Shown here: one piece after another, positions 7,796 through 63,224 of the stretch
Layout: the number at the start of each line of letters is the position of its first letter
How positions within the stretch are numbered: position 1 is the first letter of the stretch
Assembly: GCA_001798185.1 (NCBI GenBank)
Contig: MGRM01000012.1
Location: 88,120-152,119, forward strand
Source: Deltaproteobacteria bacterium RIFCSPHIGHO2_02_FULL_44_16
Lineage (GTDB): Bacteria; UBA10199; 2-02-FULL-44-16
Direction of reading: 5' to 3'
DNA: 64,000 bases
Notes under the pieces: generated by a model
What the model saw: the letters and a program-made list of their open reading frames with translations, nothing else
What the model was told of the DNA's origin: nothing
Databases searched by the model: none
Position numbers and translations under genes: made by a program

Positions 7796-8068
7796 ATGTA
7801 TCACTATATTACGCTTAAAGAGTTGCGACCAAAGCTTCCCAAAGTGATTGAAAAGATTGACACAGCCCTTGAACGCTACATTATTTCCAAGCATGGAGAG
7901 CCTATTGCGATTCTTCTCGCACTCGACGATTTCGAAAGTCTTCTTGAGACTCTCAATGAACAAGAAGATAAAGAAAATTTAAAACGCATTCGAAAAGGGA
8001 TTCAAGAAGCTAAAAAAGGTAAAACCGTTGATTGGAAAAGCGTGAAGAAAAAATATCATCTTTCTTAA
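7796..8068 (+). CDS. Phd/YefM-family antitoxin
   Basis: 90 aa; YefM-like N-terminus (ITLKELRPKLPKVIEKI...ISKHGEPIAILLALDDFESLLETL). Confidence 0.7.
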   Translation: MYHYITLKELRPKLPKVIEKIDTALERYIISKHGEPIAILLALDDFESLLETLNEQEDKENLKRIRKGIQEAKKGKTVDWKSVKKKYHLS

Positions 8069-8084
8069 AGCATGTTTAAAGAGT

Positions 8085-8174
8085 GTCATCGCGAGCCCGG
8101 AGGGCGTGGCGATCTCTAGCAATCACTGTCTGCAGGAGATTGCTTCGTCGCTAACGCTCCTCGCAATGACATAC
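8085..8174. repeat. family-3 repeat, copy b, between the antitoxin and toxin genes
   Basis: GTCATCGCGAGCCCGGAGGGCGTGGCGATCTC...GATTGCTTCGTCGC...CTCGCAATGACATAC with terminal inverted repeats of about 11 bp. Confidence 0.75.
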
Positions 8175-8206
8175 TAGGATTTGCAAACCAACTCTAAGGA
8201 CAGCGT

Positions 8207-8467
8207 GTGTATATCCTCGAACTCACCCGACAAGCAGAGAAAGCATTCGATGTCCTCATGCATGCGCAACCCCACATGGGAAAACGGGTCGCGATTGCCC
8301 TTGATCATCTCGCCAAAGACCCAGAAATAGGTATTCCTCTTCGAGGAGTATTGAAAGGATATTACAAATATCGCGTTGGCACGTATCGGATTATTTACGA
8401 GATTCAAAAGTCAAAACTGCTTGTCATTGTCATCGACATCGGCCATCGAAAAGAGGTGTACCGTTAA
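8207..8467 (+). CDS. RelE/ParE-family toxin (GTG start)
   Basis: 86 aa; C-terminal YRIIYEI...LVIVIDIGHRKEVYR is typical of the RelE/ParE superfamily. Confidence 0.7.
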   Translation: MYILELTRQAEKAFDVLMHAQPHMGKRVAIALDHLAKDPEIGIPLRGVLKGYYKYRVGTYRIIYEIQKSKLLVIVIDIGHRKEVYR

Positions 8468-8732
8468 AAATCTCAACAAGTGGATTTTAAGAAAATAGTT
8501 CGAAAAGCCATAATAATAACCGGTTTCCTCTTCTTTCGATAACCACACGCGGCGGAGTGTATACTGCGGAGAAGCAGGTGGGACCTTGATGTGGTCGAGT
8601 GCATCGACCACATCGCGATCAGCGCTTCCACTTCCATGCGCAATCCAGACTCCACCTGTTGCCTTGAGCATAGGATCCAGGGCCGTGACGACGCCAGACG
8701 TTGGCGTGGTTACCGTAATTATTTTTTCAGGA

Positions 8733-10828: not shown

Positions 10829-10845
10829 ATTTTCTCTCACATTTT

Positions 10846-10915
10846 TGTCATCCTCGCGAAAGCGGGGATCCAGTGTTTTGGATATTTCTGGATTCCCGCT
10901 TTCGCGGGAATGACA
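10846..10915. repeat. family-1 double-hairpin element, copy b (intergenic)
   Basis: TGTCATCCTCGCGAAAGCGGGGATCC...GGATTCCCGCTTTCGCGGGAATGACA. Confidence 0.8.
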
Positions 10916-10919
10916 ACTT

Positions 10920-12782
10920 TCATAACACAAGAAGCAAAAGAGCAAGGAGAAAAATCACACCAAATCCCATACAGGACGCAATATAGATGAGTTCTGATCG
11001 ATGTCGCACGAGTTTCACATTTCCATGAAACATTTCTTTTAGGAATCTTAAAGTACGTGCGCGAAGGTTCGGTGATTCCAAAAGATCTGCAAGAAAATAA
11101 TATCCATCAAAATCAAGGAGAGGACAGAGATTCAAAAGAACAACAACATACGAAAGAGAAGCAAAGAGGAGCGCAAGAGAATCGAACATCGCATGATCGA
11201 TTACGAATGCCATGATCGAAGCAATCCCGGCTGGAATCATATGAGCATAAGGGCCTGCGAGTGTAACAGACATGCGGGGGAAACGTGATGCAGTCCACAT
11301 ATCAGAGGTATCGACAAAAAACATGGGGCCGACCCAATACCAGCCAAAACCGACTCCAAGCACGCGACGTTGAAAATGTTTTACCGTGAGCGCATGCCCT
11401 GCTTCGTGAAAAAGAATGCTCATGAAAAAGAGAGGAAGAAGCCACCATAACCAGATGGGAAAAGTCATCGCACGCTGAAATGCAGAAACAATCGAAACCT
11501 TCTGAGACGAAAAGGAGAAAAGACCGAAAAGGACAACAGAGCCAATAATGCATTGGCCTTTTTTGGAAAAGAACAAACAAGATATTTTTTGGAAGATGCC
11601 TGCAATCCATGCATCAACATCTGAAATATAGTATCTCCACTGAAGAATGCGTGAAAGAACACTGAAACATAAAACGAGACGGGAATGGAACGTATTCTTC
11701 AAGTCTCTTGTTTTCGCATTCCTCCCCTCAATCATGCCTGCAGCACCAAGGTCACTTATTTGCTGGGCAATCACATGAGGGGCAAAAGCTTTGTATTTTT
11801 CAAAATAGGATAAGGTGAGTTCTTTGAGTGTATGATCACCATCGAGAAGTTCCCACAAAAACAATCCTTCTGGTGTCAGCCGATAATAAAGATGCGCCGT
11901 TGGATCGTTCAGGATGAAAGAACGAATTCCATCTTTCGTTTCATATTCTTGAATGATAATTGTTTTGCGTCGGCATGGACGATCGCGAAGTTGCAAAAGA
12001 TCAATAAATTGGAGTCGGGCGCTCGGCTCATCGTGCAAGAACTGAAGCAATGCATCGCGCGAAATAACGAGTAGCTCTGAAGGTTCAACGGCTTTGACTG
12101 TCGCATTTCGTTTCTCTCCTGAAAGCAAAGCCGCTTCCCCGAATGTTGCTCCGGTTTCAAGAAAAGCGAGGGGCTTTTTATTTCCCACTTGATCTGAAGT
12201 TGTCACTTCAACTTTTCCCTGTCTCAACAGATAACATTCTGATCCCATTTCTCCCTCGCGAAGAAGAATTTCTCCTGACCGAACACTTTTCGACTGAAGA
12301 GATGTTGCAAATTTTTTGAGTCGATCAGCCGAAAGTGAAGAAAAAGGAGAGAGTTGTTTCAGAAATGAGGCTCGAAGCAATATTTCGGCCGTCTCTTCAA
12401 AAAGTTTTTTTGCATCTGGCGACTCATCAAGAGCGGCAAGAAAATCCTCACGAGAAAGTGAAAGTGCATGAAGTGTGGTAAGAGCAAATACCGAAGCGGT
12501 CCGTTTTTGATGTTTTGAAAGAAGCGCAATCTCGCCAAAATATTCTCCTGGACCAAGTGTTGCCATGACGACTGGTCCTGAGGAAGATGAAACAGCAACT
12601 TCGGCTCTCCCCTGAAGGATCAGGAAAAAGCGCTCCCCTTCTCCTCCTTCAGCGACAATCTTCACTCCGGAAGAAAAAACCTCTTCCCGAAAATGTTCTG
12701 AAAAAAAAGAAAGCGCCTTGTCGGAAAATAAAGCAAACAAGGACGCTTTCTTGAGCAACCTGACGTAATCTTTGGATGTCAT
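10920..12782 (-). CDS. membrane protein with tandem cyclic-nucleotide-binding domains fused to a site-2-protease-like M50 metalloprotease domain
   Basis: two CAP_ED-like segments (FFLILQGRAEV..GEYFGEIALL and YLLRQGKVEV..GATFGEAALLSGEKRNATVKA); C-terminal hydrophobic helices with HEAGHAL (HExxH) and LLDFDG motifs. Confidence 0.7.
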   Translation of the reverse strand: MTSKDYVRLLKKASLFALFSDKALSFFSEHFREEVFSSGVKIVAEGGEGERFFLILQGRAEVAVSSSSGPVVMATLGPGEYFGEIALLSKHQKRTASVFALTTLHALSLSREDFLAALDESPDAKKLFEETAEILLRASFLKQLSPFSSLSADRLKKFATSLQSKSVRSGEILLREGEMGSECYLLRQGKVEVTTSDQVGNKKPLAFLETGATFGEAALLSGEKRNATVKAVEPSELLVISRDALLQFLHDEPSARLQFIDLLQLRDRPCRRKTIIIQEYETKDGIRSFILNDPTAHLYYRLTPEGLFLWELLDGDHTLKELTLSYFEKYKAFAPHVIAQQISDLGAAGMIEGRNAKTRDLKNTFHSRLVLCFSVLSRILQWRYYISDVDAWIAGIFQKISCLFFSKKGQCIIGSVVLFGLFSFSSQKVSIVSAFQRAMTFPIWLWWLLPLFFMSILFHEAGHALTVKHFQRRVLGVGFGWYWVGPMFFVDTSDMWTASRFPRMSVTLAGPYAHMIPAGIASIMAFVIDHAMFDSLALLFASLSYVVVLLNLCPLLDFDGYYFLADLLESPNLRARTLRFLKEMFHGNVKLVRHRSELIYIASCMGFGVIFLLALLLLVL

Positions 12783-12792
12783 TTTATATTGA

Positions 12793-12993
12793 TTACATCC
12801 CCTTATTCATTTTTGCTGTAAGCTGTTGATCATTTAATTTCCAGTCGATCTTGCGAAATGCATTTGTTTCTTCTGCCGTTAGCTTCACACCAGTTGATTG
12901 CAATGTTCCTATCGGGTTCTTTCGCATCTTCGTTCTAAAACCAATGTCATTCGCCCACTTCTCAACTAACATTTCAATCTCTTTGCGTGCCAT
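12793..12993 (-). CDS. small paralogous peptide 1 (66 aa), NHLP/Nif11-leader-like
   Basis: MARKEIEMLVEKWANDIGFRTKMRKNPIGTLQSTGVKLTAEE...; AGGAGG RBS 6 nt upstream of the ATG; trimmed from the longer ORF. Confidence 0.6.
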   Translation of the reverse strand: MARKEIEMLVEKWANDIGFRTKMRKNPIGTLQSTGVKLTAEETNAFRKIDWKLNDQQLTAKMNKGM

Positions 12994-13006
12994 TCTTCCT
13001 CCTTGT

Positions 13007-13210
13007 TTAAGCAAGCCATTTACTGACACGTGATTGCAATTCTTGATCACTCAACTTCCAATCAATGTTTTTAAAAGCATTCATTTCTTCTGGTGTCAGC
13101 TTCACTCCTGTTGATGTAAGCGTTGCCATCGGATCTTTTCGCATCTTGGTTCTGAAACCAGCATCACTTGTCCATTTTTCGACTAACATTTCAATTTCCT
13201 TGCGCACCAT
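13007..13210 (-). CDS. small paralogous peptide 2 (67 aa)
   Basis: MVRKEIEMLVEKWTSDAGFRTKMRKDPMATLTSTGVKLTPEE...; own RBS. Confidence 0.6.
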   Translation of the reverse strand: MVRKEIEMLVEKWTSDAGFRTKMRKDPMATLTSTGVKLTPEEMNAFKNIDWKLSDQELQSRVSKWLA

Positions 13211-13240
13211 ATAACCTCCCTATGATTTTCGTTCTCATGA

Positions 13241-13438
13241 CTAATACTTATTTATCCTTGCCTTAAGTTCTTCGTCATTTAAACTCCAGTCAATTTTGCG
13301 AAATGCACCCATTTCTTCGTTTGTTAGTTTCACTCCTGTCGATGTGATCGTTCCCATTGGATCTTTGCGCATCTTTGTTCGGAATCCCATATCATTCGTC
13401 CATTTCTCAACCAATCCTTCAATCTCCTTGCGCACCAT
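13241..13438 (-). CDS. small paralogous peptide 3 (65 aa)
   Basis: MVRKEIEGLVEKWTNDMGFRTKMRKDPMGTITSTGVKLTNEE...; AGGAGG RBS. Confidence 0.6.
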   Translation of the reverse strand: MVRKEIEGLVEKWTNDMGFRTKMRKDPMGTITSTGVKLTNEEMGAFRKIDWSLNDEELKARINKY

Positions 13439-13453
13439 ATATCCTCCTTTTGA

Positions 13454-13654
13454 TCAAGGTATCTTAGAAACTCTGGTTTTTAGTTCCTCATCACTTAGTT
13501 TCCAATCAATCTTGCGGAACACTGACATTTCTTCGGGGGTAAGTTTCACTCCCGTTGTTTGCAACGTGTCCTCAGGATTCTGCCGCATGTTCTTGCGAAA
13601 CATCTGGTCGTTCATCCACTTGTCGAACAACATGTCGATTTCTTTTTTTCCCAT
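13454..13654 (-). CDS. small paralogous peptide 4 (66 aa)
   Basis: MGKKEIDMLFDKWMNDQMFRKNMRQNPEDTLQTTGVKLTPEE...; GGAGGAGG RBS; trimmed from the longer ORF. Confidence 0.6.
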   Translation of the reverse strand: MGKKEIDMLFDKWMNDQMFRKNMRQNPEDTLQTTGVKLTPEEMSVFRKIDWKLSDEELKTRVSKIP

Positions 13655-14621
13655 CGTCCTCCTCCTTTGAAAAAAATGAAGCGTTGCGAATAAGCTTCTG
13701 CAGCACTTTTGCTGCAGGCTCAAAAGGTCGCGCTTCCATAAGCGCAGAACGTGCTTTCTCGCAATAAATTTCAGTCACAATCGCTGTCATCCACTTTGCT
13801 CCTGTTGCACTCAGCTGTGTTTGAATTGCACGTCGACTTTTGAGAGAAGATTTTGCATCTTGAAGCGACGTCAAAAAAATTTGCTTTTCCACTCCCTTCA
13901 AACGCTCGAGACAAAAAGCGATTGGAAAGGTTCTCGTGCCATTGGAGATATCCTTACTCTGTTGAGATTCAAAAAGATCATAACAATCTGACGAAAGTTG
14001 ACCCGCAACACCAAGAGCCCTGGCGTATGCCATATAATGTTCAACACATTCTGGATGAGCATTTGCCGTATGTGCTGCAAGGGCTGCAAACATCGCTAAT
14101 TCCTCGCCACTCTTTTTCATGACACTTAACTCAACTGCGTTCGTCGATACTTTACTCTTGTTCACAGATGCAATGTCTTGTTGCTGTCCATCGCTCATGA
14201 TGAGGAGCCCACGCGCAATCGTTTCATGCATGAGATTTTTCTGCTCATGCGAAAGAGAGAGTTTTGCAAGAAGAAGGTGAGGAAACGTGCTGACAAGTGT
14301 TGTTCCTAATATCAATCCTTCTTGAGGAGTTAATTTTCCCTCGTGTTGCAAATCTCCATCCGCAAGATCATCGAGGATATCGATTCCCAAATAGAGTATT
14401 GACGTGAGAACTGGAAGCAAGATGGGAACTTTTTTTGCGGTAATCCCCTCATAGACAGCCGATGGAAGCGAAATAAAGAAAAGTTCACTCTCTTCCGAAA
14501 CGTAGGTTTGAAGACGTTCAACAGCATATGCAAAAAGCCGTCGCTGTTCAGAAGATTGCGACCAGGAAGAGAGTTCATCTTGAAGACGTGACAGAACTTC
14601 AGATGTTTCCGAAGACTTCAA
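13572..14621 (-). CDS. trans-isoprenyl diphosphate synthase-like (polyprenyl synthetase fold) protein
   Basis: first Asp-rich motif DILDDLADGD at the expected position; second motif degenerate (GQLSSDCYDLFE); the 3' end overlaps peptide 4 by about 80 nt in another frame. Confidence 0.55.
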   Translation of the reverse strand: MKSSETSEVLSRLQDELSSWSQSSEQRRLFAYAVERLQTYVSEESELFFISLPSAVYEGITAKKVPILLPVLTSILYLGIDILDDLADGDLQHEGKLTPQEGLILGTTLVSTFPHLLLAKLSLSHEQKNLMHETIARGLLIMSDGQQQDIASVNKSKVSTNAVELSVMKKSGEELAMFAALAAHTANAHPECVEHYMAYARALGVAGQLSSDCYDLFESQQSKDISNGTRTFPIAFCLERLKGVEKQIFLTSLQDAKSSLKSRRAIQTQLSATGAKWMTAIVTEIYCEKARSALMEARPFEPAAKVLQKLIRNASFFSKEEDDGKKRNRHVVRQVDERPDVSQEHAAES

Positions 14622-15899
14622 TCACTTTCCTCCCGTTGTTGTTTTCAAAATTGCACCCGTATTTGTCGCTGTATTTCCGCAAGCTGCGTATCCAACAAGA
14701 TCACTCACCATTTCGATTTTTTGCACAATGTAGGTTGTATTGCTCGTTTGAGCCGTCCATGTTGTGCCAGAGTTTTCAGAATAAAGAATGGTTCCATTGA
14801 ATCCACCAGCCCAAATCTTCTCACTACGAACATCCAGCGCAGAAATATCTTCGGTCGTTCCTGTTGTCAGCACGGTCCAGGTGGCAGCAGCATCTGTCGT
14901 TTTTGCAATGAGTCCACCCTCTCCTCCGATATAGCACGTATTCACATCTGAACAGGAAACTTCATGCAGATCACAACTATCGGGATCTGAATTGGGACAG
15001 GTGAACGTACTTGAAATATTTGTCCACGTTGTTCCTCCATCAGTCGTTTCAAGAATTGCCGCGCGATTTCCGACAGCATAGCCATTTGAGGTATCGGCAA
15101 AAAAGATACGATTGATTTCGTCATTTGTTCCTGTTGTTTGAGTATCATAGACTGTCGTCCATGTGCTTCCACTATTGGTGGTTTTCAGAATAAAACTGAC
15201 ATTGCCACTATAACCTCCGGCAGCATAACCGGTATTTTCATCGAAAAAGAAAAGAGAATTCACACGATCAAGTGTTGTTAAACTTCGATTGGGAAATGCA
15301 GTCACCGTATTGAATTGAGAACTCCAACTCGTGCCACCGGTTGTCGTGACCCAGATCGATGCTCCTAAATTAACGGAATCCTGTCCGCCAATCCAGACAT
15401 GTGTGGTAGTAACAGGAGCAACTGCCCGGAGCCGTGAAGCAGAGAGTGTTGAAAAATCGAGACGAGTTGAAGTAGTGCCACTATCAGTTGATTTGAGCAC
15501 TTCGCCCAAACTTCCAACTGCCCAACCATTCGTCGTATCGGAATCGACAATCGCAATATCAAAATCACCAGAAGATGATCCTTGCGTCACTCCACCTGTT
15601 GCAATGAGACCACTTTGATCGGTGCCGATAAAATCGGTCCCGTCAATGACCGTACCACTGGATGTCACTACATCCCAAGCAGAGGCTGTACTCGTTGTCG
15701 TAGAACTCGTGCTTGTTGTTGAACTTGAGCCGCAGGCGAAAATGAAAAAACAGATAGAAAAAAGAAGACAAGATCGAACAACTGGCATCATCCCCCCTGC
15801 TGTTGTTTTTATGTGTTTAGCTCTTTTTGGTAGAGATGACAAGGTTTTCGTACCCGTTGTCATTCTGAACGGAGTGAAGAATCTCGTTGAGATCTTCAT
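14622..15899 (-). CDS. secreted BNR/Asp-box repeat beta-propeller protein (Ycf48-like)
   Basis: signal peptide, Ser/Thr-rich linker, at least 5 SxDxGxTW-type repeats (TDGGTTWTN, TNSGSTWTT, TTGGTSWSS, ENSGTTWTA). Confidence 0.6.
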   Translation of the reverse strand: MKISTRFFTPFRMTTGTKTLSSLPKRAKHIKTTAGGMMPVVRSCLLFSICFFIFACGSSSTTSTSSTTTSTASAWDVVTSSGTVIDGTDFIGTDQSGLIATGGVTQGSSSGDFDIAIVDSDTTNGWAVGSLGEVLKSTDSGTTSTRLDFSTLSASRLRAVAPVTTTHVWIGGQDSVNLGASIWVTTTGGTSWSSQFNTVTAFPNRSLTTLDRVNSLFFFDENTGYAAGGYSGNVSFILKTTNSGSTWTTVYDTQTTGTNDEINRIFFADTSNGYAVGNRAAILETTDGGTTWTNISSTFTCPNSDPDSCDLHEVSCSDVNTCYIGGEGGLIAKTTDAAATWTVLTTGTTEDISALDVRSEKIWAGGFNGTILYSENSGTTWTAQTSNTTYIVQKIEMVSDLVGYAACGNTATNTGAILKTTTGGK

Positions 15900-15965: not shown

Positions 15966-17126
15966 CTAGATTCGATTCTCTTTTGTCTCTTCAATCAATT
16001 TTCCTAAAAACTTCTCATAGTCCGTGCCACCAGTGGCAATAGGACCGCGACCTTTCTTTTTGATGTACTGAATCGCTGCTTCCAGATGCAACATTCGAAA
16101 TGCGGCAAGAGCGTCATGAGCTTCGTTAAAAGCTTTCCGAATATTTGCGTCAGTTTTATTTTTTGTGGCATAGGCGCGTAGTGAAGGACCAGCTTCGATC
16201 GCGAGAATCCATTCACGTTCGCGTGGAGCACGATAATCTTTGAGCTCTGTTAAGTGATCAATCAACTCACTCGGCTGATGATGTACGCCGAGCACACAAT
16301 CAAATGAAATAATAGACGGCGACTCAGCGCCTGTCTCCCCCTTCAATCGTTCAAAATGTCCAACACCTTCATAGGTAATATCTTGAAAGTAAAAGATCCA
16401 AGGACGAACATGTTTGAAATAGACTTCAGGACTACAGACACTCGGAATGGTTTTGAATGTCTCTCCCATATCGAGCAATGCATGGTGCATGCTGTTCAAA
16501 GCATTGATAAAACCCTCTTTGTTCTCATTTACCACCGCAAGTTGCGCTGCCGGAATTGCACGGAGCCCAGGCGCGGCTTTGGCCTCGATTTCAACGTGCG
16601 GCAAGATGAAACCATATTCGTCACGCGTATAAGGTGGAATCGTAAAATGTTGAATGAGTTTTAAATTCTCAAAACGGATCGGTTTTTTTTGATCAACACG
16701 AGTCCAATTCTGCGTTGCATACATATTGTAAGCAAGAATTGGTTGCATATTGAGTTTCTTGCCAAGCTTTACAAAAGGAATTGCAAGTCCTTGCGGCATA
16801 TTTTTCGCATGTGGAGCATCGATGTCATTGACACAATCAGCCCAAGCATACGCACTCGTAAGAAAACAGAGGTGACGAAATGCCACAAGCGCTGCTTCAT
16901 GATTCATTTTTTCAACTGGCAACACCGGGATTTTTTCAAGCTTCGCACGAATCGTCCCATCATAGAGCATCTGCGGAAGTTCAGCCGCAAGGTCATCATA
17001 AAGCGCAAACTCTTCGTTGCCTTTCGGAAGTTTTGGAAGTGGGTCTGGGTACGGTAGAAATCCTCGATCTTCACGAACAAGATCGTTGTCGATAAATTGA
17101 AGTGCTGGAACTTGCTGTGTCATCAC
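15966..17126 (-). CDS. indoleamine 2,3-dioxygenase family protein (heme dioxygenase)
   Basis: C-terminal GPIATGGTDYEKFLGKLIEETKE parallels eukaryotic IDO ...[20 protein letters not shown]; the central YEGVGHFERLKGETGAESPSIISFDCVLGV parallels IDO ...[31 protein letters not shown]. Confidence 0.7.
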   Translation of the reverse strand: MMTQQVPALQFIDNDLVREDRGFLPYPDPLPKLPKGNEEFALYDDLAAELPQMLYDGTIRAKLEKIPVLPVEKMNHEAALVAFRHLCFLTSAYAWADCVNDIDAPHAKNMPQGLAIPFVKLGKKLNMQPILAYNMYATQNWTRVDQKKPIRFENLKLIQHFTIPPYTRDEYGFILPHVEIEAKAAPGLRAIPAAQLAVVNENKEGFINALNSMHHALLDMGETFKTIPSVCSPEVYFKHVRPWIFYFQDITYEGVGHFERLKGETGAESPSIISFDCVLGVHHQPSELIDHLTELKDYRAPREREWILAIEAGPSLRAYATKNKTDANIRKAFNEAHDALAAFRMLHLEAAIQYIKKKGRGPIATGGTDYEKFLGKLIEETKENRI

Positions 17127-17198: not shown

Positions 17199-17897
17199 TT
17201 AGGGCATCACAAACGTTTCGAAGCTTAACCAAAAAAGTGGCTCTTGCGAAAGAGCCTTGGCAAACGATTGGTTCTGAACTGCAATATCGCGGTCATTGCC
17301 AGAGACATAAGCGGTGGTAGGAGAAAGAAACTTGCGAAACGTGTTGGTTCTTGAAACTACATGATCTCTATAATTCTCAAACTCTTCTTCAGGTTGCTGT
17401 AATACTTCTTTTGAAAGCGAAGCTTTGTAAATGCCAGTTCCTGTCACGATACGATGATCAAAGGTAACGTTAAAACCCACTTCAGAAATAATTCTCGCAT
17501 CGTCAAAGGCTTGATTGACGTCCTCTGGAGATGGTGTTTCAACTTTAGCTCTTGAAGCAAGAGAAACCGATTTTTGAGGATGAATATGATAAACAGAAAT
17601 TTGTGTCTCGAAGCCATCTTGAAACAAAAGCAAAATATCTAATAGTATTTCGTTTTCATATTCTGCCCTTGTTTTTCTTTCTTCGGTTCCGATTTCATAC
17701 CAATTTGTAACTTTTTGACCAACAGCATTTGTCCCTTCAATATAGATCCATATCTCTTCCACCTCACTTGAACGCGCAAGCGCCACAAGCTGCTCTTCTC
17801 CGGCACGACGGTTCATCGCCACGACCTCGTGCTCGGAGGACGTATTGACACGAAGTGCTGTTTTTACGAGATATTGTGAGACACTTGGGGTTGACAC
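17199..17897 (-). CDS. hypothetical protein (232 aa), same orientation as the IDO gene
   Basis: ORF only; weak HIHP...SPED pattern of unclear meaning. Confidence 0.35.
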   Translation of the reverse strand: MSTPSVSQYLVKTALRVNTSSEHEVVAMNRRAGEEQLVALARSSEVEEIWIYIEGTNAVGQKVTNWYEIGTEERKTRAEYENEILLDILLLFQDGFETQISVYHIHPQKSVSLASRAKVETPSPEDVNQAFDDARIISEVGFNVTFDHRIVTGTGIYKASLSKEVLQQPEEEFENYRDHVVSRTNTFRKFLSPTTAYVSGNDRDIAVQNQSFAKALSQEPLFWLSFETFVMP

Positions 17898-17982
17898 AGC
17901 GCACGCTCCTCACCGTTATTATCGGCTCAGAGCATGCTCATGTTGTGCACTTGGCACAAAAAAAACATCATTTTATTTCTTG

Positions 17983-18069
17983 TGCCCGGGGCCGGACTCG
18001 AACCGGCAAGGGGATATACTCCCCGAAGGATTTTAAGTCCTTTGCGTTTACCGATTTCGCCACCCGGGC
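17983..18069 (-). tRNA. tRNA-Leu (anticodon TAA)
   Basis: cloverleaf by eye on the reverse complement: GCCCGGG acceptor stem, GGTTCGAGTCC T-arm, anticodon loop CTTAAAA, long variable arm. Confidence 0.8.
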
Positions 18070-18187
18070 ATACGAAATTTCCAACAATCAGCCATATCAA
18101 AAAAAACTCGATGGGGATTCTTAAGGGGAGAGCAATATCTCCCCTTAAGGTAAAGCGATTGCGAATTTACTTCGCAATCGCGAATTG

Positions 18188-18259
18188 AGGCGGCGACCGG
18201 GTTCGAACCGGTGAATAACGGTTTTGCAGACCGTCGCCTTACCACTTGGCTACGCCGCC
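18188..18259 (-). tRNA. tRNA-Cys (anticodon GCA)
   Basis: reverse complement GGCGGCGTAGCCAAGTGGTAAGGCGACGGTCTGCAAAACCGT...GGTTCGAACCCGGTCGCCGCC; anticodon loop CTGCAAA. Confidence 0.8.
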
Positions 18260-24090: not shown

Positions 24091-24111
24091 TTGAGAAAAA
24101 AGAGGCTTATA

Positions 24112-24741
24112 ATGCCCCGCTACCCCATAATTCATATTCCCGACGGAATTTATTCAGTAACCAGCAAATGCAACAATAATGAATTTCTCTTTGACGCTGA
24201 AGAGAAGTTTCAATTGTATTTACATCATCTCCTAGAATGTAAACGCAAATTGAATTTCATTATCTATGATCTCTGTTGTATGTCGAACCATGTGCATGAA
24301 CTTTATCGTGTCACCCGTGGAATTACGATTGCGGATATTCTTCACACCGTTCGTGGACATTTTTCTCAAAAATTTAATACTCGTTTTGGGCGAAGCGGAC
24401 ATTTTTGGAAAAGCAAACCTTACTATCGTATTGTTGAAGACGAGCAATATGCATTTCATCTCATGAATTATTTTCACTTAAATCCTGTAAAGGCCGGCCT
24501 TGTTGATAAACCTGAAAATTGGCCTTATTCAGGATATCGCTTTCATATGCTCGGGGACCGAAAAGGACTTATGGGGAGACTACTTAATCAAATTCCTGGA
24601 ACTTCGAAATCCACAACATCAGTCGATTCTGAAAACTTGTATTTGAACAAGTTACTTCAACGACGTCGATTACGATTTATTGGAACAGAAGAGTTTATAA
24701 ACAGCATGCAGACAAGATATAAACGAGATAGCGAGAAATAA
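24112..24741 (+). mobile_element. REP-associated tyrosine transposase (RAYT, IS200/IS605 TnpA-like HUH Y1 transposase)
   Basis: MPRYPIIHIPDGIYSVTS N-terminus; HuH motif SNHVHEL; YFHLNPVKAGLVDKPENWPYSGY catalytic-Tyr motif; flanked by REP palindromes. Confidence 0.8.
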
Positions 24742-58164: not shown

Positions 58165-58887
58165 TTATTTTTCGATATTTTCAAGAGATTCAATTCCATA
58201 ATTACGAAGTGTAGTTTCAGTGGTAGATCCAATCGCCAAAAATTGAAGCCGACACATTTTTTCCTGAAGACCTCTCTCCAGAATCATCTGCATAAAATGT
58301 TTCACTGCTGATGGACTGGCAAAATGAACGACGTCAAGTTTTCCCTCGTCCATAAGATGAATGAACTGCTCGTGATCAAAATCTTTGGGAAAGATGGTTT
58401 GATAGGTTTCAACAACATCGACAATCGCACCTCTTTTTTCAAGACCCTGCACAAGCATATCTCTCCCCTCTTTGGCTCGCGGAAAAAGAACACGTTTTCC
58501 TTCAAAGGAGTAATTTCGAAGTATTTCCAATAAACCCTCTGCACTTGGAGTTTCCGCAATAATCATATCGTGCACATCGAGGTCATGAAGCAGCTTTGCT
58601 GTTTCTGGTCCAACAGCTGCAACGCGACTTGAAAGATCTTTTCCACAAGGGGCATGCGGACGAGAAAAAAAACGCGCAACAGCATTTCCACTGGTGAACA
58701 AAATCCAGTGGTATTGGAAAAGAGACGCCAGCGCCTCATCAAGCGTTGCATAATGATCCGAAGGATCTGTAATTTCAATGAAAGGAATATGAAGCACTGA
58801 TGCTCCTTGGGCTTCAAATTCGCGAATTGTCTTCTCTGCTTGTTCCTGAGGGCGCGTCACCAGAATTGTTTTTCCTTTGAAGTTCAA
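58165..58887 (-). CDS. hemD: uroporphyrinogen-III synthase
   Basis: GKTILVTRP...GASVLHIPFIEI N-terminal pattern; about 240 aa. Confidence 0.7.
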   Translation of the reverse strand: MNFKGKTILVTRPQEQAEKTIREFEAQGASVLHIPFIEITDPSDHYATLDEALASLFQYHWILFTSGNAVARFFSRPHAPCGKDLSSRVAAVGPETAKLLHDLDVHDMIIAETPSAEGLLEILRNYSFEGKRVLFPRAKEGRDMLVQGLEKRGAIVDVVETYQTIFPKDFDHEQFIHLMDEGKLDVVHFASPSAVKHFMQMILERGLQEKMCRLQFLAIGSTTETTLRNYGIESLENIEK

Positions 58888-58986
58888 CTAATCTCCTTCC
58901 AAATTTCCGCGCAACTGTTTTAGAAGTTCATCGATAAGTACAAAGACATACACCATGCACAAATTCAAGTAACTAAAGGAGGCTTT

Positions 58987-59397
58987 ATGGCAGAAACAAT
59001 ATTACAATTTTCCCCAGCAGTAAAAGCAACCGAAGCAGAAGCAACTCGCTGGGAGCAATCGCCCAGACTTCTACGAACAAGTAATACAGTGGGAGAACCA
59101 GATCGATACAGCGCAGATATTCCTTTTCCCAAAAAATTAAGTACTATTCATTGTTGGCGCTCTCCTTCAACAGCGCCTGAGAAAATGAACACCGTTGTAT
59201 GTAGCATTAGTCCTCAAGATAAAAGTGAAAGCTTACAGCTCAGGTTTGAATATGAGAAAGGTAAAAATTATCCAGTTACCGACAACATTCGTTGGGGTGA
59301 TTTTGATAATGATGGTGATATTGACCTCGCATTTATGCTCCAAATGCATGACGCTTCCAGACAACTTTACGTATGGCATAACGTCACAAAAAAATAG
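58987..59397 (+). CDS. hypothetical protein with a DxDxDGxxD-like motif
   Basis: FDNDGDIDLAF. Confidence 0.3.
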   Translation: MAETILQFSPAVKATEAEATRWEQSPRLLRTSNTVGEPDRYSADIPFPKKLSTIHCWRSPSTAPEKMNTVVCSISPQDKSESLQLRFEYEKGKNYPVTDNIRWGDFDNDGDIDLAFMLQMHDASRQLYVWHNVTKK

Positions 59398-59408
59398 GGA
59401 GTGACAGT

Positions 59409-60542
59409 TTAACGCGTCGCCAAATAGTGTCCAAGAAGTGGGTCCGAAATACGATAGCCTTTTTCAAGTTCATACTCGATCAGACCTCGATCAAGAAGTT
59501 TCTTCATGATTTTTCCAACACTCGATTTTGAAGTGTTGACCAATTTCAAAAACATTTCTGAATGCGGCTCCAAGGTAAAGCGCTGTCTCGCAAGAGCACT
59601 CATCACACCACACTCTTTCTCTGTGTAACTCTGAAGCAAATACGCATAGCTCTGTTTGCTTTCGACCATTTTATCCAATTCCTGTTTCAAGTGTCCTATC
59701 GTGAATGTCGTTCCTGGAGCAATATTCTCAAGAAGCCATGCTCCAAACTCACAAATAGCATTTGGAACATCGCAAAGAGTTTCGAGGATCCATTCCATTT
59801 CTTCTTGATGAAGAAGAATCTTTTTTGGTTTCATTCGCTCGCGGAAATAGACAAGCCAATCTTGAAGAGGAATAGGGCCCAAATGAACTTCATCACCATA
59901 GTGAAAAAGAGGAGCATGTGCATCTTGAAACATAAGCGTCAGCAAATGACGCTTTGAACCGAGTATAAAAACCGCAGTATCCCCAAGTTCCTGAAGAAGA
60001 CTTCGAAAGAGAGCTTCTGCTTCAGGAACAAAAGTAATATCAGGAAACTCATCCAAAATAATCATTGTGGGATATTTACGAGAAAGCTCTTTGACAGTTT
60101 CCATAAAGTGCAGCATTTCTCCTTTTGCTTCTTTTGTTTTGGATATGAGTGACAGTGATGGCTGACCCGTTACGGAATCCATTTCTACTTGCAATGAAAG
60201 TCCGCGCAGATAATCTCCAACATCTCTCAGAAGCGTTTTCACAGGAAAGCGTTGAGAAAGAGCAAAAGAAACACCGTGGTGAAATCTTTTTGCGATGGAT
60301 TCAAGACTTTGAACTCCCATCAGATCAAAAAAAAGAACAAGATGACGACGACTTAAGGAAAAAAAGGCAGTTCCAATGACATTTTTCACCAGAGATGTTT
60401 TTCCATACCGTCGTGGAGCAAAAACAATGGTGCGTTTTTTAGCTTTCGCTCGCTTGAGCAAATCAGTTTGCTCCAACTTTCTATCGCAAAGATCATCTGT
60501 TTCAATAAGGACATCGTATTTAAAATTCTTGTTTGGTTTCAT
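59409..60542 (-). CDS. AAA-type ATPase with C-terminal winged-helix domain (PF01637 'archaeal ATPase' / DUF234-like)
   Basis: Walker A APRRYGKTSL; Walker B IILDEF. Confidence 0.55.
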   Translation of the reverse strand: MKPNKNFKYDVLIETDDLCDRKLEQTDLLKRAKAKKRTIVFAPRRYGKTSLVKNVIGTAFFSLSRRHLVLFFDLMGVQSLESIAKRFHHGVSFALSQRFPVKTLLRDVGDYLRGLSLQVEMDSVTGQPSLSLISKTKEAKGEMLHFMETVKELSRKYPTMIILDEFPDITFVPEAEALFRSLLQELGDTAVFILGSKRHLLTLMFQDAHAPLFHYGDEVHLGPIPLQDWLVYFRERMKPKKILLHQEEMEWILETLCDVPNAICEFGAWLLENIAPGTTFTIGHLKQELDKMVESKQSYAYLLQSYTEKECGVMSALARQRFTLEPHSEMFLKLVNTSKSSVGKIMKKLLDRGLIEYELEKGYRISDPLLGHYLATR

Positions 60543-60571
60543 GTTCTTTTTGTAACAAAAAGGAAGCTATT

Positions 60572-60619
60572 TGTCCACTAAAAGTGGTCCACTTTTAATG
60601 GACCACTAAAAGTGGTCCA
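60572..60619. promoter_or_regulatory. two copies of a palindromic motif between the paralogous ATPase genes
   Basis: TGTCCACTAAAAGTGGTCCA and GGACCACTAAAAGTGGTCCA 28 bp apart, each containing CCACTAAAAGTGG. Confidence 0.5.
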
Positions 60620-60670
60620 ATTCATCAAGATTTTACAAAGCAACTTTTCTGGTGAATTTCTGAAGAAATA

Positions 60671-61798
60671 TCACCGAAACTTTTTCAGGAAATAAAAAAG
60701 CAGAGGATCAGCAATACAGAATCCTTCTTCATTCCTTTCAATCACTGATTTATCAAGAAAGGAAGAAATGGTAAGACTTATAGTTCGCGCCGTAGAATGT
60801 ATCTCTTTTAAAAAAACCTGGCTCGTAGGATGTTTGATCGGTCCAAATTTTGCCAAAGCAACAAGAATCTCTTCTTCTTTTTCGGAAAAATGTGAAAGCC
60901 ACTCTTCAAAACGACTTCGACGTTTTTCAAGTACATGATCAATGGATTGGAAAATATCCTGTGGTTCAATCTTTTTTCGTTCGTGGTTTTCACAAAGATC
61001 AGCACAAACAATATTGATCGATTCTGGAATACGGAAAAGAGCATCCTGAAGTTCTCGTGCTGTTGGAAAATCGATCTTAAGTTTTCGGAAGTGAAAACGC
61101 TCTGAAATATATTGATGATAGACTTCATACGCAATCTTTTCAAATTCAAGATCTTCACCAAATGATGCGAGGGGAGCATTTGGTTTTGCAAAAAGTTGCG
61201 AAAGAATATGTTTTTTTGATCCCATCAGAATAAGCGGGATTTTTCGCAATTCCTGAAATGCTTGTCGAAACAGTCCCTGCGCTTCCGGTATAAGAGCAAT
61301 ATCCTGAAATTCATCCAGAACAAGAAGAACTGACATGTTCTTTGAAATTTTTTTATTGATAATAGTAAAGATTTCAAGAAATGAAATTGATTTTTTATCT
61401 CGTGAGATTCCAAGTGAAAGCGTTGGCGATCCCGTAAGTGAATCAAAACTCACTTCGGGCCTTAATTGTGACAAAAACTGCTTTGTCAACGCCACAAGAT
61501 TTTTTGCCGGAAAGGCAGAACTAAAAGCGGATTCAAAACCGATCTGTATTCTTTGATGAATGGATTCAAGACTCTTGACCTCCATTAAATCGACAAAAAG
61601 GGCAAAGCTTTTGGAATGTTTTTTTTGAAAATAGGGAATCACAACATTTTTGACAAGAGAGGTTTTTCCAGTATTTCGCGCACCACAAACCACAAATTTC
61701 TTCTTTTGGAGCACTCCTTGTTGGAGCATTTTCTTTTCTCTCTCGAGATTACAGATATTTTCTTCATCCAAAAGTGTATCGTAAAAAAACCCTTTCAT
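60671..61798 (-). CDS. AAA-type ATPase, paralog of the gene at 59409-60542
   Basis: Walker A GARNTGKTSL; LVLDEF; colinear with the paralog. Confidence 0.55.
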   Translation of the reverse strand: MKGFFYDTLLDEENICNLEREKKMLQQGVLQKKKFVVCGARNTGKTSLVKNVVIPYFQKKHSKSFALFVDLMEVKSLESIHQRIQIGFESAFSSAFPAKNLVALTKQFLSQLRPEVSFDSLTGSPTLSLGISRDKKSISFLEIFTIINKKISKNMSVLLVLDEFQDIALIPEAQGLFRQAFQELRKIPLILMGSKKHILSQLFAKPNAPLASFGEDLEFEKIAYEVYHQYISERFHFRKLKIDFPTARELQDALFRIPESINIVCADLCENHERKKIEPQDIFQSIDHVLEKRRSRFEEWLSHFSEKEEEILVALAKFGPIKHPTSQVFLKEIHSTARTISLTISSFLDKSVIERNEEGFCIADPLLFYFLKKFR

Positions 61799-61958
61799 AG
61801 AAACCTCCCCCTTGAAAATTTTATACTGTTAGTATAATACAAAAAGTATAATATCAAGAGTATCTTTGTAGAAAATGGGGTTGCTTCAAGTAAAGATATT
61901 CAAAGCAACTTTCTGACGTTAGCGTCGAGACAATAAAAGCAAAACAAAGGAGATTTTT

Positions 61959-63224
61959 ATGCGTGCAATTGGTGACAGCACAATAGTTGTAAGAGGACCT
62001 CAGATAGGAGAACATATGATCTTTTTACCTTCTGCGGGACAAAAAGTTTCACAGCACGAGATAACAGCTTCTCTTCGAGAAGCTATTCCAACGCTCAGTA
62101 CTTCTGAAGCCTTGAGCATTGTAGAAGCAATTGATCATGAAGAAGGAGTTGGCCAAGGCGATGGTTATTTAACGATAAAGAACAATTCATCGATAAACAA
62201 TTTTCGAAATCTCGTCGAACTTCGACTCTGCACATTCTCCGATGAAGCTTATGATAAAAGAACTTGCCGATGGAGTGATATTTCCGCAGTTGAACAGACT
62301 CTACGTCAAAAACTGATTGATCCACATCTCGTCGATGAAGAGCCTCTGACAACTTCTGAGCTTGCTCAAAAAATTGTTCAACGAGCAAAATTTCTTGGCC
62401 ATGAACCAAAATTACTTGGCAATGAAATAACTCTTCATGAAGCGCATCAAATAGCGGTCGCTGTCCAACAAGAAGAAGATTCCATAGACGGACTCATTAC
62501 TCCTCGCTCTTCCGATGCAGCGTCCAAAGCACAATTGCGAGATCTCATTACTGCTCGACTTCCAATGTATGCAGGAAATGAAAACATTATTACTGCCCTG
62601 TCAGCTGCACTGGATCCTTCTATTGCTTTGTACATCCCCAATGAAAATCAAATTGAAGATTCGGATCTACCACCTCTCTATGTCGGAGCGACAATGGTTA
62701 TGCCCACCGATACAGAAGGACTTCTGCAACTCATTACAGTACTCCAGGCGCAAGGAGGAAGGACTGCAGCGATTTCCCTGGGAGGGTTAAGATCCATGTT
62801 AATCGGAAGCACAGAAGCGCTTGCTCGCGCACCGAGGGAATTTTTTTATGCTCTTGGACAAGCTCTCGTATATGCGCGCAGAATTCATCCTGATCAAGCA
62901 TTTGCCAGCTTTGTTACAGCAACTTCTTACCGCATCAGCACACTTCTTCCTTCAACATCTTACGGTTCGATAACACAACCGAAACTTTTAGCACGGTTAG
63001 TAAGCCTTTCAGCCCTTACTCTTCGTGCGGAAATGACAAATATAATGTTGAGAGGGCAAGCAGTTACACCGATTGTTCTTATCAATGCTCAGCAAGTCAA
63101 TCAACAAGTGGCAAATAGTACCGGGATACCATTAGCACGCGCTGCGGTTTTGGTCACGGGAGCTTTTATATTCGGCTTTGGAATTGGTGCTACTGTTTGT
63201 TATTTCAACAGAGATGACGAATAA
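61959..63224 (+). CDS. hypothetical protein (421 aa) with a C-terminal hydrophobic segment
   Basis: ORF only. Confidence 0.35.
   Translation: MRAIGDSTIVVRGPQIGEHMIFLPSAGQKVSQHEITASLREAIPTLSTSEALSIVEAIDHEEGVGQGDGYLTIKNNSSINNFRNLVELRLCTFSDEAYDKRTCRWSDISAVEQTLRQKLIDPHLVDEEPLTTSELAQKIVQRAKFLGHEPKLLGNEITLHEAHQIAVAVQQEEDSIDGLITPRSSDAASKAQLRDLITARLPMYAGNENIITALSAALDPSIALYIPNENQIEDSDLPPLYVGATMVMPTDTEGLLQLITVLQAQGGRTAAISLGGLRSMLIGSTEALARAPREFFYALGQALVYARRIHPDQAFASFVTATSYRISTLLPSTSYGSITQPKLLARLVSLSALTLRAEMTNIMLRGQAVTPIVLINAQQVNQQVANSTGIPLARAAVLVTGAFIFGFGIGATVCYFNRDDE

What the first reader, a model, noticed from the sequence alone, without database searches (positions are those of the whole stretch)
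15966..17126. Bacterial indoleamine 2,3-dioxygenase homolog embedded in the peptide operon
The C-terminal TGGTDxxxFL motif and the central YEG...GxSxxQSS-like segment match eukaryotic IDO. IDO/PrnB-fold enzymes are sporadic in bacteria. Its position directly upstream of and co-oriented with the BNR/IPPS/peptide genes suggests a role in Trp chemistry for this system, and perhaps action on peptidyl-Trp.
Basis: partly seen in the sequence, partly recalled or inferred. Interest (0 to 1): 0.55.

Follow-up and report, generated by a model that had tools for sequence, protein, structure and literature searches.

The report
Bacterial IDO gene beside peptide operon
The gene is a genuine, intact bacterial relative of the human tryptophan-degrading haem enzyme IDO, but apart from this one genome nothing ties it to the modified-peptide genes next to it, so it most likely acts on free tryptophan.

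Summary
ORF 15966-17126 (minus strand, 386 aa, probable start ATG 17123) matches Pfam PF01231 at E=4e-58. It matches human IDO2 and IDO1 structures by sequence (E about 1e-38 to 1e-32). Its high-confidence model (pLDDT 93.6) superposes on them at TM 0.85-0.90. The proximal haem histidine and the residues that hold free tryptophan in human IDO1 are all present.

The neighbouring genes are a real RiPP (ribosomally made, modified peptide) cassette: four tandem Os1348/NHLP-clan precursor peptides, a polyprenyl-synthase-like enzyme of the ComQ/PalQ kind, and a cNMP-binding M50 protease. That three-part cassette recurs in about 19 independent metagenome loci. None of them carries an IDO. Conversely, none of about 85 loci with bacterial IDO homologues carries any cassette gene, including the sister lineage at 62% identity. 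The window's IDO has the same active-site residues as those unlinked homologues and no extra peptide-binding domain.

Best reading: an ordinary bacterial IDO-family dioxygenase acting on free L-tryptophan or a small indoleamine. It may be co-transcribed with the cassette, but it is not a conserved part of it. A lineage-specific role on peptidyl-tryptophan stays possible at about 8-10%.

The parts
15966..17126 (-). IDO-family haem dioxygenase gene (386 aa from GTG 17126; the likely start is ATG 17123, giving 385 aa)
   Evidence: PF01231 at E=4e-58. Human IDO2/IDO1 sequence matches. AF2 model pLDDT 93.6, Foldseek TM 0.85-0.90 to IDO1/IDO2. H347 aligns with the proximal His346, R241 with R231, T365 with T379. 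Ribosome-binding site read from the sequence.
17199..17897 (-). Upstream co-oriented gene of unknown function (232 aa). Context only. It carries an HIHP...PSPED motif reminiscent of JAB/MPN metalloproteases.
   Evidence: No Pfam, NCBIfam or PDB match. No homologue in any IDO or cassette locus. Unrelated to the 232-aa proteins next to IDO in Patescibacteria.
14622..15899 (-). BNR/Ycf48-like beta-propeller, probably a lipoprotein (likely start ATG 15791, followed by a ...FIFAC lipobox). Its stop codon abuts the start of the next gene.
   Evidence: PF14870 at E=9e-18. The gene caller starts it at M37. A GGGAGGA site and a TGA-TTG junction with the downstream gene are visible in the sequence. Absent from all other cassettes.
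13572..14621 (-). Polyprenyl-synthase-like (trans-IDS-like) protein, a putative peptide prenyltransferase and the conserved core enzyme of the RiPP cassette
   Evidence: PF00348 at E=5e-12. The first Asp-rich motif DDLADGD is conserved, the second is degenerate (SDCYD), and the GGKRxR and RRG motifs are missing. Trans-IDS fold, with the Trp prenyltransferase Ord1 among the hits.
13454..13654 (-). Precursor peptide pepA (66 aa). It overlaps the disordered 3' run-on of the upstream ORF.
   Evidence: NF038399 (Os1348 NHLP-clan), 51.6 bits against a cut-off of 40. Sequence and ribosome-binding site.
13241..13438 (-). Precursor peptide pepB (65 aa)
   Evidence: NF038399, 52 bits. Tandem repeat family D1.
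13007..13210 (-). Precursor peptide pepC (67 aa)
   Evidence: NF038399, 62.8 bits. PF14407 at E=4.6e-6.
12793..12993 (-). Precursor peptide pepD (66 aa)
   Evidence: NF038399, 51.3 bits.
10920..12782 (-). Protease with two cNMP-binding domains, a weak PqqD-like region and an M50 intramembrane metalloprotease domain; the putative leader peptidase of the cassette
   Evidence: PF00027 at E=4e-43 and PF02163, weak. Daptide HExxH protease model at E=2e-37, ScmD/PqqD-like at E=4e-4. Conserved next to the polyprenyl-synthase-like gene in other loci.
10845..10916 (.). Inverted repeat with 29-nt arms just after the M50 stop codon; probable operon end or REP-like element
   Evidence: Inverted repeat I1, 90% complementary.
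17982..18259 (-). tRNA-Leu(TAA) at 17982-18069 and tRNA-Cys(GCA) at 18187-18259, immediately upstream of the gene string
   Evidence: ARAGORN.

Best explanation
The ORF encodes an intact, cytoplasmic, haem-dependent dioxygenase of the indoleamine 2,3-dioxygenase family. It most likely binds haem through His347 and inserts O2 across the C2-C3 bond of free L-tryptophan, or of a closely related small indoleamine, to give N-formylkynurenine. Arg241 would hold the substrate carboxylate, and Thr365 of the short GTGGT loop would hold the amino group, as in human IDO1. The gene sits next to a RiPP cassette (Os1348-family precursors, a ComQ/PalQ-like prenyltransferase and a cNMP-M50 protease) and may be transcribed with it. 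It is not an evolutionarily conserved component of that cassette. What is shown: family membership, fold, conserved catalytic and substrate-binding residues, and the lack of linkage in other genomes. What is inferred: haem binding, the substrate and the reaction.
For: PF01231 matches at E=4e-58, and human IDO2 and IDO1 match by sequence. The AF2 model has pLDDT 93.6 and pTM 0.92, and Foldseek gives TM 0.85-0.90 to IDO1/IDO2. Aligned against human IDO1 (sequence recalled from memory; 24 canonical residue numbers checked out), Y133=Y126, F173=F163, R241=R231, H347=H346 and T365/G366/T368=T379/G380/T382. R241, H347, G366 and T368 are invariant across 28 bacterial homologues. At all 24 mapped positions the window has the majority residue of homologues that sit in unrelated contexts. 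In a neighbour-joining tree the window's IDO groups with P0001 and P0002 on an ordinary branch. P0002's neighbours are TauE and Pyr_redox_2 genes. Other close-clade contexts are Rrf2-IscS-NifU, a 247-aa unknown, a PG-binding protein and DprA. A tblastn search of all cassette proteins against 89 IDO loci found nothing but one weak cNMP hit. About 19 independent cassettes lack IDO. Neighbour clustering in 84 IDO loci shows no recurrent partner; the best is 7 of 84. Pfam finds no second domain, and the protein has no signal peptide. PMC10744910 states that IDO and TDO have only been described acting on Trp or its small-molecule derivatives. The haem-synthesis genes hemC and hemD are in the same window.
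Against: In this genome the gene is co-oriented with the cassette and close to it: 75 nt after the upstream gene and 66-174 nt before the BNR gene. The BNR gene is itself translationally coupled to the cassette enzyme. No terminator-like site or significant RNA structure lies in the IDO-BNR gap. Both neighbours are tryptophan-centred. Every characterised trans-IDS-like peptide prenyltransferase targets Trp (PMC13290415), and the precursors carry a Trp conserved in 34 of 37 sequences. No kynurenine formamidase or kynureninase gene is in the 64-kb window, so a catabolic pathway is not visible locally. Several pocket residues differ from human IDO1: His177 for Ser167, Tyr136 for Cys129, and E-T-G for G262-S263-A264. 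The substrate could therefore be another small indole. No biochemistry was possible.
Confidence: 0.75

Rival explanations
1. The IDO is a lineage-specific tailoring enzyme of this RiPP cluster. It would oxidise a tryptophan residue of the Os1348-family precursors, such as the conserved Trp51 in the IDW motif, the extra Trp in pepC's SKWLA tail, or a Trp exposed at a terminus after M50 cleavage. The product would be a peptidyl N-formylkynurenine or kynurenine, formed before or after prenylation.
For: The arrangement is compact and co-oriented, with no detectable terminator between the IDO gene and the cassette. The BNR gene lying between them is translationally coupled to the prenyltransferase-like gene, so extra genes have joined this operon. 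Both chemistries centre on Trp (PMC13290415; peptide alignment). RiPP clusters often pick up lineage-specific tailoring enzymes (general knowledge). A peptide-tryptophan 2,3-dioxygenase activity has been reported from plants and animals with no sequence assigned to it (PMC10744910).
Against: There is no co-occurrence in either direction outside this genome. The active-site residues match those of unlinked homologues, including the Arg and Thr that bind the free carboxylate and amine. There is no RiPP-recognition or other extra domain. The branch length is ordinary, and the nearest relatives sit in unrelated contexts. The window's peptides have the same Trp positions as peptides from IDO-less cassettes, apart from one non-conserved Trp in pepC. 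No paper in the searched library links IDO to RiPPs.
Confidence: 0.1
2. The enzyme acts on a small molecule but not as a classical tryptophan catabolic enzyme. It could act on another free indole substrate, perform PrnB- or MarE-like non-canonical chemistry, or serve in oxygen or redox stress handling rather than in kynurenine production.
For: His177, near-invariant in the bacterial homologues (26 of the 28 aligned), replaces human Ser167, and several pocket residues differ. In Patescibacteria relatives the gene lies among Rrf2-IscS-NifU, superoxide dismutase, glutaredoxin and peroxiredoxin genes. A peroxiredoxin-like neighbour recurs in 5 of 84 loci. In the sister lineage a Pyr_redox_2 gene starts directly after the IDO stop codon. 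No kynurenine-pathway genes lie nearby. From memory, Yuasa et al. 2011 (Gene) reported that many bacterial IDOs have very low Trp turnover; this was not re-checked here.
Against: The Arg and Thr pair that binds the amino-acid moiety is conserved, which fits a Trp-like amino acid. There is no PF08933 (PrnB) match. The neighbour associations are weak, at most 7 of 84 loci.
Confidence: 0.12
3. The ORF is a decayed or spurious gene.
For: None found.
Against: The match is full length, the model is confident, the catalytic residues are intact, a strong ribosome-binding site precedes the start, and the C-terminal half recurs identically (189 aa) in an independent JGI metagenome contig, L093.
Confidence: 0.01

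Closest known systems
Eukaryotic indoleamine 2,3-dioxygenases IDO1 and IDO2 (PF01231)
   Same: The two-domain all-helical fold (TM 0.85-0.90). The proximal His, Arg231, Phe163 and Tyr126 equivalents, the GTGGT loop and the C-terminal TGGTDxxxFL motif.
   Different: Only 24-29% identity in the structural alignments. The JK loop is much shorter. His replaces Ser167, Tyr replaces Cys129, and E-T-G replaces G262-S263-A264. The context is a bacterial operon.
Bacterial IDO homologues (freshwater acI Actinomycetota, Planctomycetota, Chloroflexota, Bdellovibrionota, Fimbriimonadia, Patescibacteria and others)
   Same: The window's protein nests inside this group, at 43-67% identity to a 17-member clade and 30-39% to the rest. 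At the 24 mapped active-site positions it has the majority residue of the close clade; a few homologues differ at single positions. These genes are usually stand-alone with variable neighbours.
   Different: Among about 85 IDO loci examined, this is the only one that abuts a RiPP cassette.
[quoted passage not shown]
   Same: Haem enzymes of the same broad superfamily that act on tryptophan-type substrates. The distal His177 recalls the distal His of TDO (from general knowledge).
   Different: No Pfam match to PF08933 or to the TDO family at E<=0.01. The N-terminal small domain typical of IDO is present.
ComQ/ComX and PalQ/PalX tryptophan-prenylating RiPP systems (relevant to the neighbouring cassette, not to the IDO itself)
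   Same: An NHLP-clan precursor paired with a trans-IDS-like enzyme that has a repurposed second Asp-rich motif (PMC10853753, PMC13290415).
   Different: The cassette also has a cNMP-PqqD-M50 protease. Its precursors have an internal conserved Trp and a 1-6 residue variable tail. None of the described systems contains an IDO.

Membership tests
Indoleamine 2,3-dioxygenase family (PF01231) | Significant full-length match to the family profile, above the curated cut-off | tested here: met
   197.6 bits against a cut-off of 26, E=4e-58, profile positions 7-358 of 412.
Indoleamine 2,3-dioxygenase family (PF01231) | Two-domain IDO fold | tested here: met
   AF2 model with pLDDT 93.6 and pTM 0.92. 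Foldseek top 50 hits are all IDO1 or IDO2, TM 0.82-0.91, rmsd 2.1-3.1 A.
Indoleamine 2,3-dioxygenase family (PF01231) | Proximal haem-ligating histidine (human His346) | tested here: met
   His347 aligns with it and is invariant in 29 sequences.
Indoleamine 2,3-dioxygenase family (PF01231) | Residues that bind free L-Trp (human Arg231 for the carboxylate, Thr379 for the ammonium group, Phe163 and Tyr126 in the pocket) | tested here: met
   R241, T365, F173 and Y133 align with them. The roles of these residues come from published IDO1-Trp structures, recalled from general knowledge.
Indoleamine 2,3-dioxygenase family (PF01231) | Haem binding and conversion of Trp to N-formylkynurenine | not testable with these tools
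   Needs purified protein, spectroscopy and an activity assay.
PrnB / DUF1864 (PF08933) | Match to the PF08933 profile | tested here: not met
   PF01231 is the only Pfam family reported at E<=0.01.
Component of the Os1348-peptide / trans-IDS-like / cNMP-M50 RiPP cassette | Co-occurrence with the cassette in independent genomes | tested here: not met
   None of about 19 independent cassettes has an IDO. None of 89 IDO loci has a cassette gene, nor do L119 and L120. The two occur together only in copies of the same genome.
Component of the Os1348-peptide / trans-IDS-like / cNMP-M50 RiPP cassette | Same strand, short intergenic gaps and no terminator (operon-like arrangement) | tested here: inconclusive
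   The gaps are 75 nt and 66-174 nt. No terminator-like site lies in the IDO-BNR gap. The gap RNA folds with z=-1.5. Consensus scans are weak evidence, and there are no expression data.
Component of the Os1348-peptide / trans-IDS-like / cNMP-M50 RiPP cassette | A peptide-recognition element or an active site remodelled for a peptide substrate | tested here: not met
   Single IDO domain only. Pocket residues match those of unlinked homologues.

The most novel reading that the evidence does not exclude
In this aquifer bacterium an IDO-family haem dioxygenase has been recruited into a tryptophan-prenylating RiPP operon. There it would cleave the indole of a peptidyl or prenylated tryptophan, giving a kynurenine-type residue in a ribosomal peptide. 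That would be the first sequence assigned to a peptide-tryptophan 2,3-dioxygenase activity and the first IDO-tailored RiPP.
Probability: 0.08. Interest if true: 0.8.

Novelty: new member of a known kind. Interest (0 to 1): 0.3.

Why it matters
As it stands, this is one more bacterial member of a small but well-known enzyme family, with limited significance. Two points are mildly useful. First, bacterial IDOs consistently carry a TDO-like distal histidine and a very short JK loop, and they have no conserved gene partners. Their physiological role is still open. Second, the juxtaposition with a tryptophan-directed RiPP cassette gives a cheap, direct experiment: assay the enzyme on free Trp against the four peptides. 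A positive result on peptides would give a sequence to the orphan peptide-tryptophan 2,3-dioxygenase activity. The neighbouring three-gene cassette is widespread in metagenomes, and no description of it was found in the papers searched. It is probably the more interesting object.

Tried and rejected
1. The 232-aa gene upstream of the IDO gene as a conserved partner. Patescibacteria relatives also have a 232-aa gene near IDO, but BLASTP shows no similarity. It is a coincidence of length.
2. A conserved neighbour for bacterial IDOs. Neighbouring ORFs within 4 kb were clustered across 84 loci. The best family, amidase-like, is in only 7 loci, and the rest reflects synteny among acI Actinomycetota.
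3. Kynurenine-pathway genes in the window. Most ORFs of at least 150 aa were scanned against Pfam. No formamidase or kynureninase was found.
4. A genomic-island signature. No tRNA-derived direct repeats flank the region, and there is no GC anomaly.
5. A terminator or structured RNA between the IDO and BNR genes. None was found.
6. Literature linking IDO to RiPPs. No papers. Searches for bacterial IDO enzymology returned only indirect mentions.
7. The fold of the polyprenyl-synthase-like protein as a way to tell a peptide prenyltransferase from a chain-elongating synthase. Canonical synthases and the Trp prenyltransferase Ord1 score alike, so the fold does not discriminate.
8. The closest IDO homologue (P0001, 67% identity). 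Its contig DNA could not be retrieved, so the gene overlapping its 3' end stays unidentified.

Full report
**Observation**

The window has an ORF at exactly 15966-17126 on the minus strand (386 aa from a GTG). The sequence upstream reads AAAGGAGGGTGTGATG. The AAGGAGG ribosome-binding site lies 5 nt before the ATG at 17123, so the product is probably 385 aa.

The protein matches Pfam PF01231 (indoleamine 2,3-dioxygenase) at E=4e-58, 197.6 bits against a cut-off of 26, over residues 17-356. No other family is reported. By sequence it matches solved human IDO2 (E=2.7e-38) and IDO1 (about 6e-33 to 1e-31).

An AlphaFold2 model built on 29 homologues is confident (pLDDT 93.6, pTM 0.92). Its best 50 Foldseek matches in the PDB are all IDO1 or IDO2, at TM 0.82-0.91. 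The 'GxSxxQSS-like' stretch is only loosely similar (GETGAESP against GGSAGQSS).

**Active site**

I aligned the protein and 28 bacterial homologues with human IDO1. I recalled the human sequence from memory and checked it against 24 canonical residue numbers, all of which matched. The correspondences are:

| Window residue | Human IDO1 residue | Role in human IDO1 / note |
|---|---|---|
| His347 | His346 | proximal haem ligand |
| Arg241 | Arg231 | binds the substrate carboxylate |
| Thr365, Gly366, Thr368 | Thr379, Gly380, Thr382 | GTGGT loop; binds the substrate ammonium group |
| Phe173 | Phe163 | pocket |
| Tyr133 | Tyr126 | pocket |

Arg241, His347, Gly366 and Thr368 are invariant across the alignment. 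The differences from the human enzyme are these:
- His177 replaces Ser167.
- Tyr136 replaces Cys129.
- E-T-G replaces G262-S263-A264.
- The JK loop is far shorter.

At every one of these positions the window has the majority residue of the bacterial homologues, so nothing is special to the window's copy. The protein has no signal peptide and no second domain.

**Surroundings**

The minus strand carries, in order:
- tRNA-Cys (18187-18259) and tRNA-Leu (17982-18069).
- A 232-aa gene with no family match (17199-17897).
- The IDO gene.
- A BNR/Ycf48-like gene, probably a lipoprotein (14622-15899).
- A polyprenyl-synthase-like gene (13572-14621).
- Four tandem 65-67-aa peptide genes (12793-13654).
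- A gene with two cNMP-binding domains, a weak PqqD-like region and an M50 metalloprotease domain (10920-12782).
- An inverted repeat with 29-nt arms (10845-10916).

The peptides pass the NCBIfam cut-off for the Os1348 family of NHLP-clan proteins (51-63 bits against 40). Os1348 itself is a small, folded, dimeric antibiotic-related precursor in Pseudomonas sp. Os17 (PMC7726476).

The polyprenyl-synthase-like protein keeps the first Asp-rich motif (DDLADGD). Its second motif is degenerate (SDCYD), and it lacks the GGKRxR and RRG motifs of chain-elongating synthases. It has the trans-IDS fold. This resembles ComQ and PalQ, peptide tryptophan prenyltransferases derived from isoprenyl diphosphate synthases. 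PalQ's substrate PalX also has an NHLP-type leader (PMC10853753). So far every characterised enzyme of this kind targets Trp (PMC13290415).

**Is the IDO part of it? Starting from the IDO**

The protein has a 17-member close clade (43-67% identity) and many relatives at 30-39%. I recovered contexts for six independent close-clade members:
- Two Patescibacteria/Saccharibacteria contigs, where the neighbours are Rrf2-IscS-NifU with superoxide dismutase, glutaredoxin and peroxiredoxin genes.
- TauE upstream and a Pyr_redox_2 gene starting 1 nt after the IDO stop codon.
- A 247-aa unknown gene overlapping the IDO start.
- A PG-binding protein.
- AdoMet decarboxylase and DprA.

A scan of 185,579 species-representative genomes gave at least 572 confirmed relatives. 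I kept the best 80 loci with up to 10 kb of flank on each side. A tblastn search of every cassette protein and of the 232-aa protein against all 89 loci found nothing except one weak cNMP-domain hit. Clustering of neighbouring ORFs across 84 loci found no recurrent partner; the best family was in 7 of 84. In a neighbour-joining tree the window's IDO groups with P0001 and P0002 on an ordinary-length branch.

**Is the IDO part of it? Starting from the cassette**

Homologues of the polyprenyl-synthase-like protein (35-46% identity) are flanked by one to seven Frankia_peptide/Os1348 peptides and a cNMP-M50 protease in every long contig examined. A metagenome scan added 24 loci.

Across about 19 independent cassettes, tblastn found the peptides and the protease again and again. 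It found an IDO or a BNR homologue only in L093 and L094. Those two are 100% identical copies of this same genome from other metagenomes.

The window itself corresponds to a 75-kb Rifle aquifer scaffold (L121). Its UvrA is closest to proteins labelled Deltaproteobacteria (74%) and Desulfuromonadales (65-66%).

The 37 aligned peptides share (I/V)DW(N/S/K)L(S/P)DEEL..R(V/I)SK followed by 1-6 variable residues. Trp51 is present in 34 of the 37. The window's peptides do not differ from those of IDO-less cassettes, apart from one extra, non-conserved Trp in pepC's tail.

**Operon structure**

The BNR stop codon abuts the TTG start of the polyprenyl-synthase-like gene, with GGGAGGA just upstream. 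BNR is therefore firmly in the cassette's transcription unit, even though other cassettes lack it.

The IDO gene ends 66 nt before the first possible BNR start, or 174 nt before the start that a gene caller chose, which is followed by a lipobox. I found no terminator-like site or significant RNA structure in that gap. Co-transcription is plausible but unproven.

**Conclusion**

The gene is a real, intact bacterial IDO-family dioxygenase. The simplest reading is that it acts on free L-tryptophan or a small indoleamine, as every characterised IDO and TDO does (PMC10744910). Its adjacency to the RiPP cassette is particular to this lineage.

Four results argue against a peptide substrate:
- Co-occurrence fails in both directions.
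- The residues that bind the free carboxylate and amino groups are retained.
- There is no peptide-recognition element.
- The branch length is ordinary.

Three results keep the idea alive. The operon-like arrangement is compact. A non-core gene (BNR) has clearly joined the operon. Both neighbours deal with tryptophan. I put a direct role on peptidyl-Trp at about 8-10%, and any functional tie to the cassette at perhaps 15-20%.

A third possibility, at about 12%, is a small-molecule role other than classical Trp catabolism. It is suggested by the distal His177, by the redox-gene neighbourhoods in relatives, and by the absence of kynurenine-pathway genes in the window.

**Novelty and score**

This is a new member of a known kind. 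The cheap decisive experiment, free Trp against the four peptides, is still worth doing, because a positive result would give a sequence to the orphan peptide-tryptophan 2,3-dioxygenase activity.

Noticed in passing
window 10920-14621 (-); also L090, L091, L092, L097-L104, L107-L109, L113, L114, L116-L118: A three-part RiPP cassette recurs in about 19 independent metagenome loci: 1-7 tandem Os1348/Frankia_peptide precursors, a trans-IDS-like (ComQ/PalQ-like) enzyme with a degenerate second Asp-rich motif, and a cNMP-PqqD-like-M50 protease. The peptides share (I/V)DW..LSDEEL..R(V/I)SK plus a 1-6 residue variable tail. I found no paper describing this cassette.
   Followed up: partly
window 13454-13654 (-): The first precursor gene (pepA) overlaps the last ~80 nt of the polyprenyl-synthase-like ORF. 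That C-terminal stretch (residues 322-349) is disordered in the model. Automatic gene calls on the same scaffold list only three of the four peptides (L121), or a truncated 49-aa version (L093).
   Followed up: partly
window 17199-17897 (-): A 232-aa protein with no Pfam, NCBIfam or PDB match. It contains HIHP followed 17 residues later by SPED, reminiscent of the JAB/MPN metalloprotease HxH...SxxD motif. It is absent from all other IDO and cassette loci examined.
   Followed up: partly
window 14622-15899 (-): A BNR/Ycf48-like beta-propeller, probably a lipoprotein with a Ser/Thr-rich linker. It is translationally coupled to the cassette's prenyltransferase-like gene but absent from every other cassette. 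Its role in a peptide operon is unexplained.
   Followed up: partly
window 10845-10916: A 29-nt-arm inverted repeat (90% complementary) lies directly after the M50 stop codon. It falls inside the N-terminal extension of the ORF called for the downstream pyrE-like gene, whose real start is probably the Met of MNFDQQ. It looks like a REP-type element or a terminator.
   Followed up: no
A1 alignment; window protein residue 177: Nearly all of the 28 aligned bacterial IDO homologues (26) have His where human IDO1 has Ser167, recalling the distal His of TDO. They also have a JK loop about 13 residues shorter than the human one.
   Followed up: partly
L001, L004-L006 (Patescibacteria/Saccharibacteria contigs); L007: In candidate-phyla-radiation relatives the IDO gene lies among Rrf2-IscS-NifU, Fe-superoxide dismutase, glutaredoxin, peroxiredoxin and DsbD genes. 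In the window's sister lineage a Pyr_redox_2 flavoprotein gene starts 1 nt after the IDO stop codon and could be a reductase partner.
   Followed up: no
window ~7800-8470, 24091-24741, 58165-63948: A PhdYeFM/ParE toxin-antitoxin pair, seen in the gene calls of L121. An IS200-like Y1 transposase. The haem-synthesis genes hemD and hemC, separated by two AAA ATPase genes and an unknown ORF.
   Followed up: no
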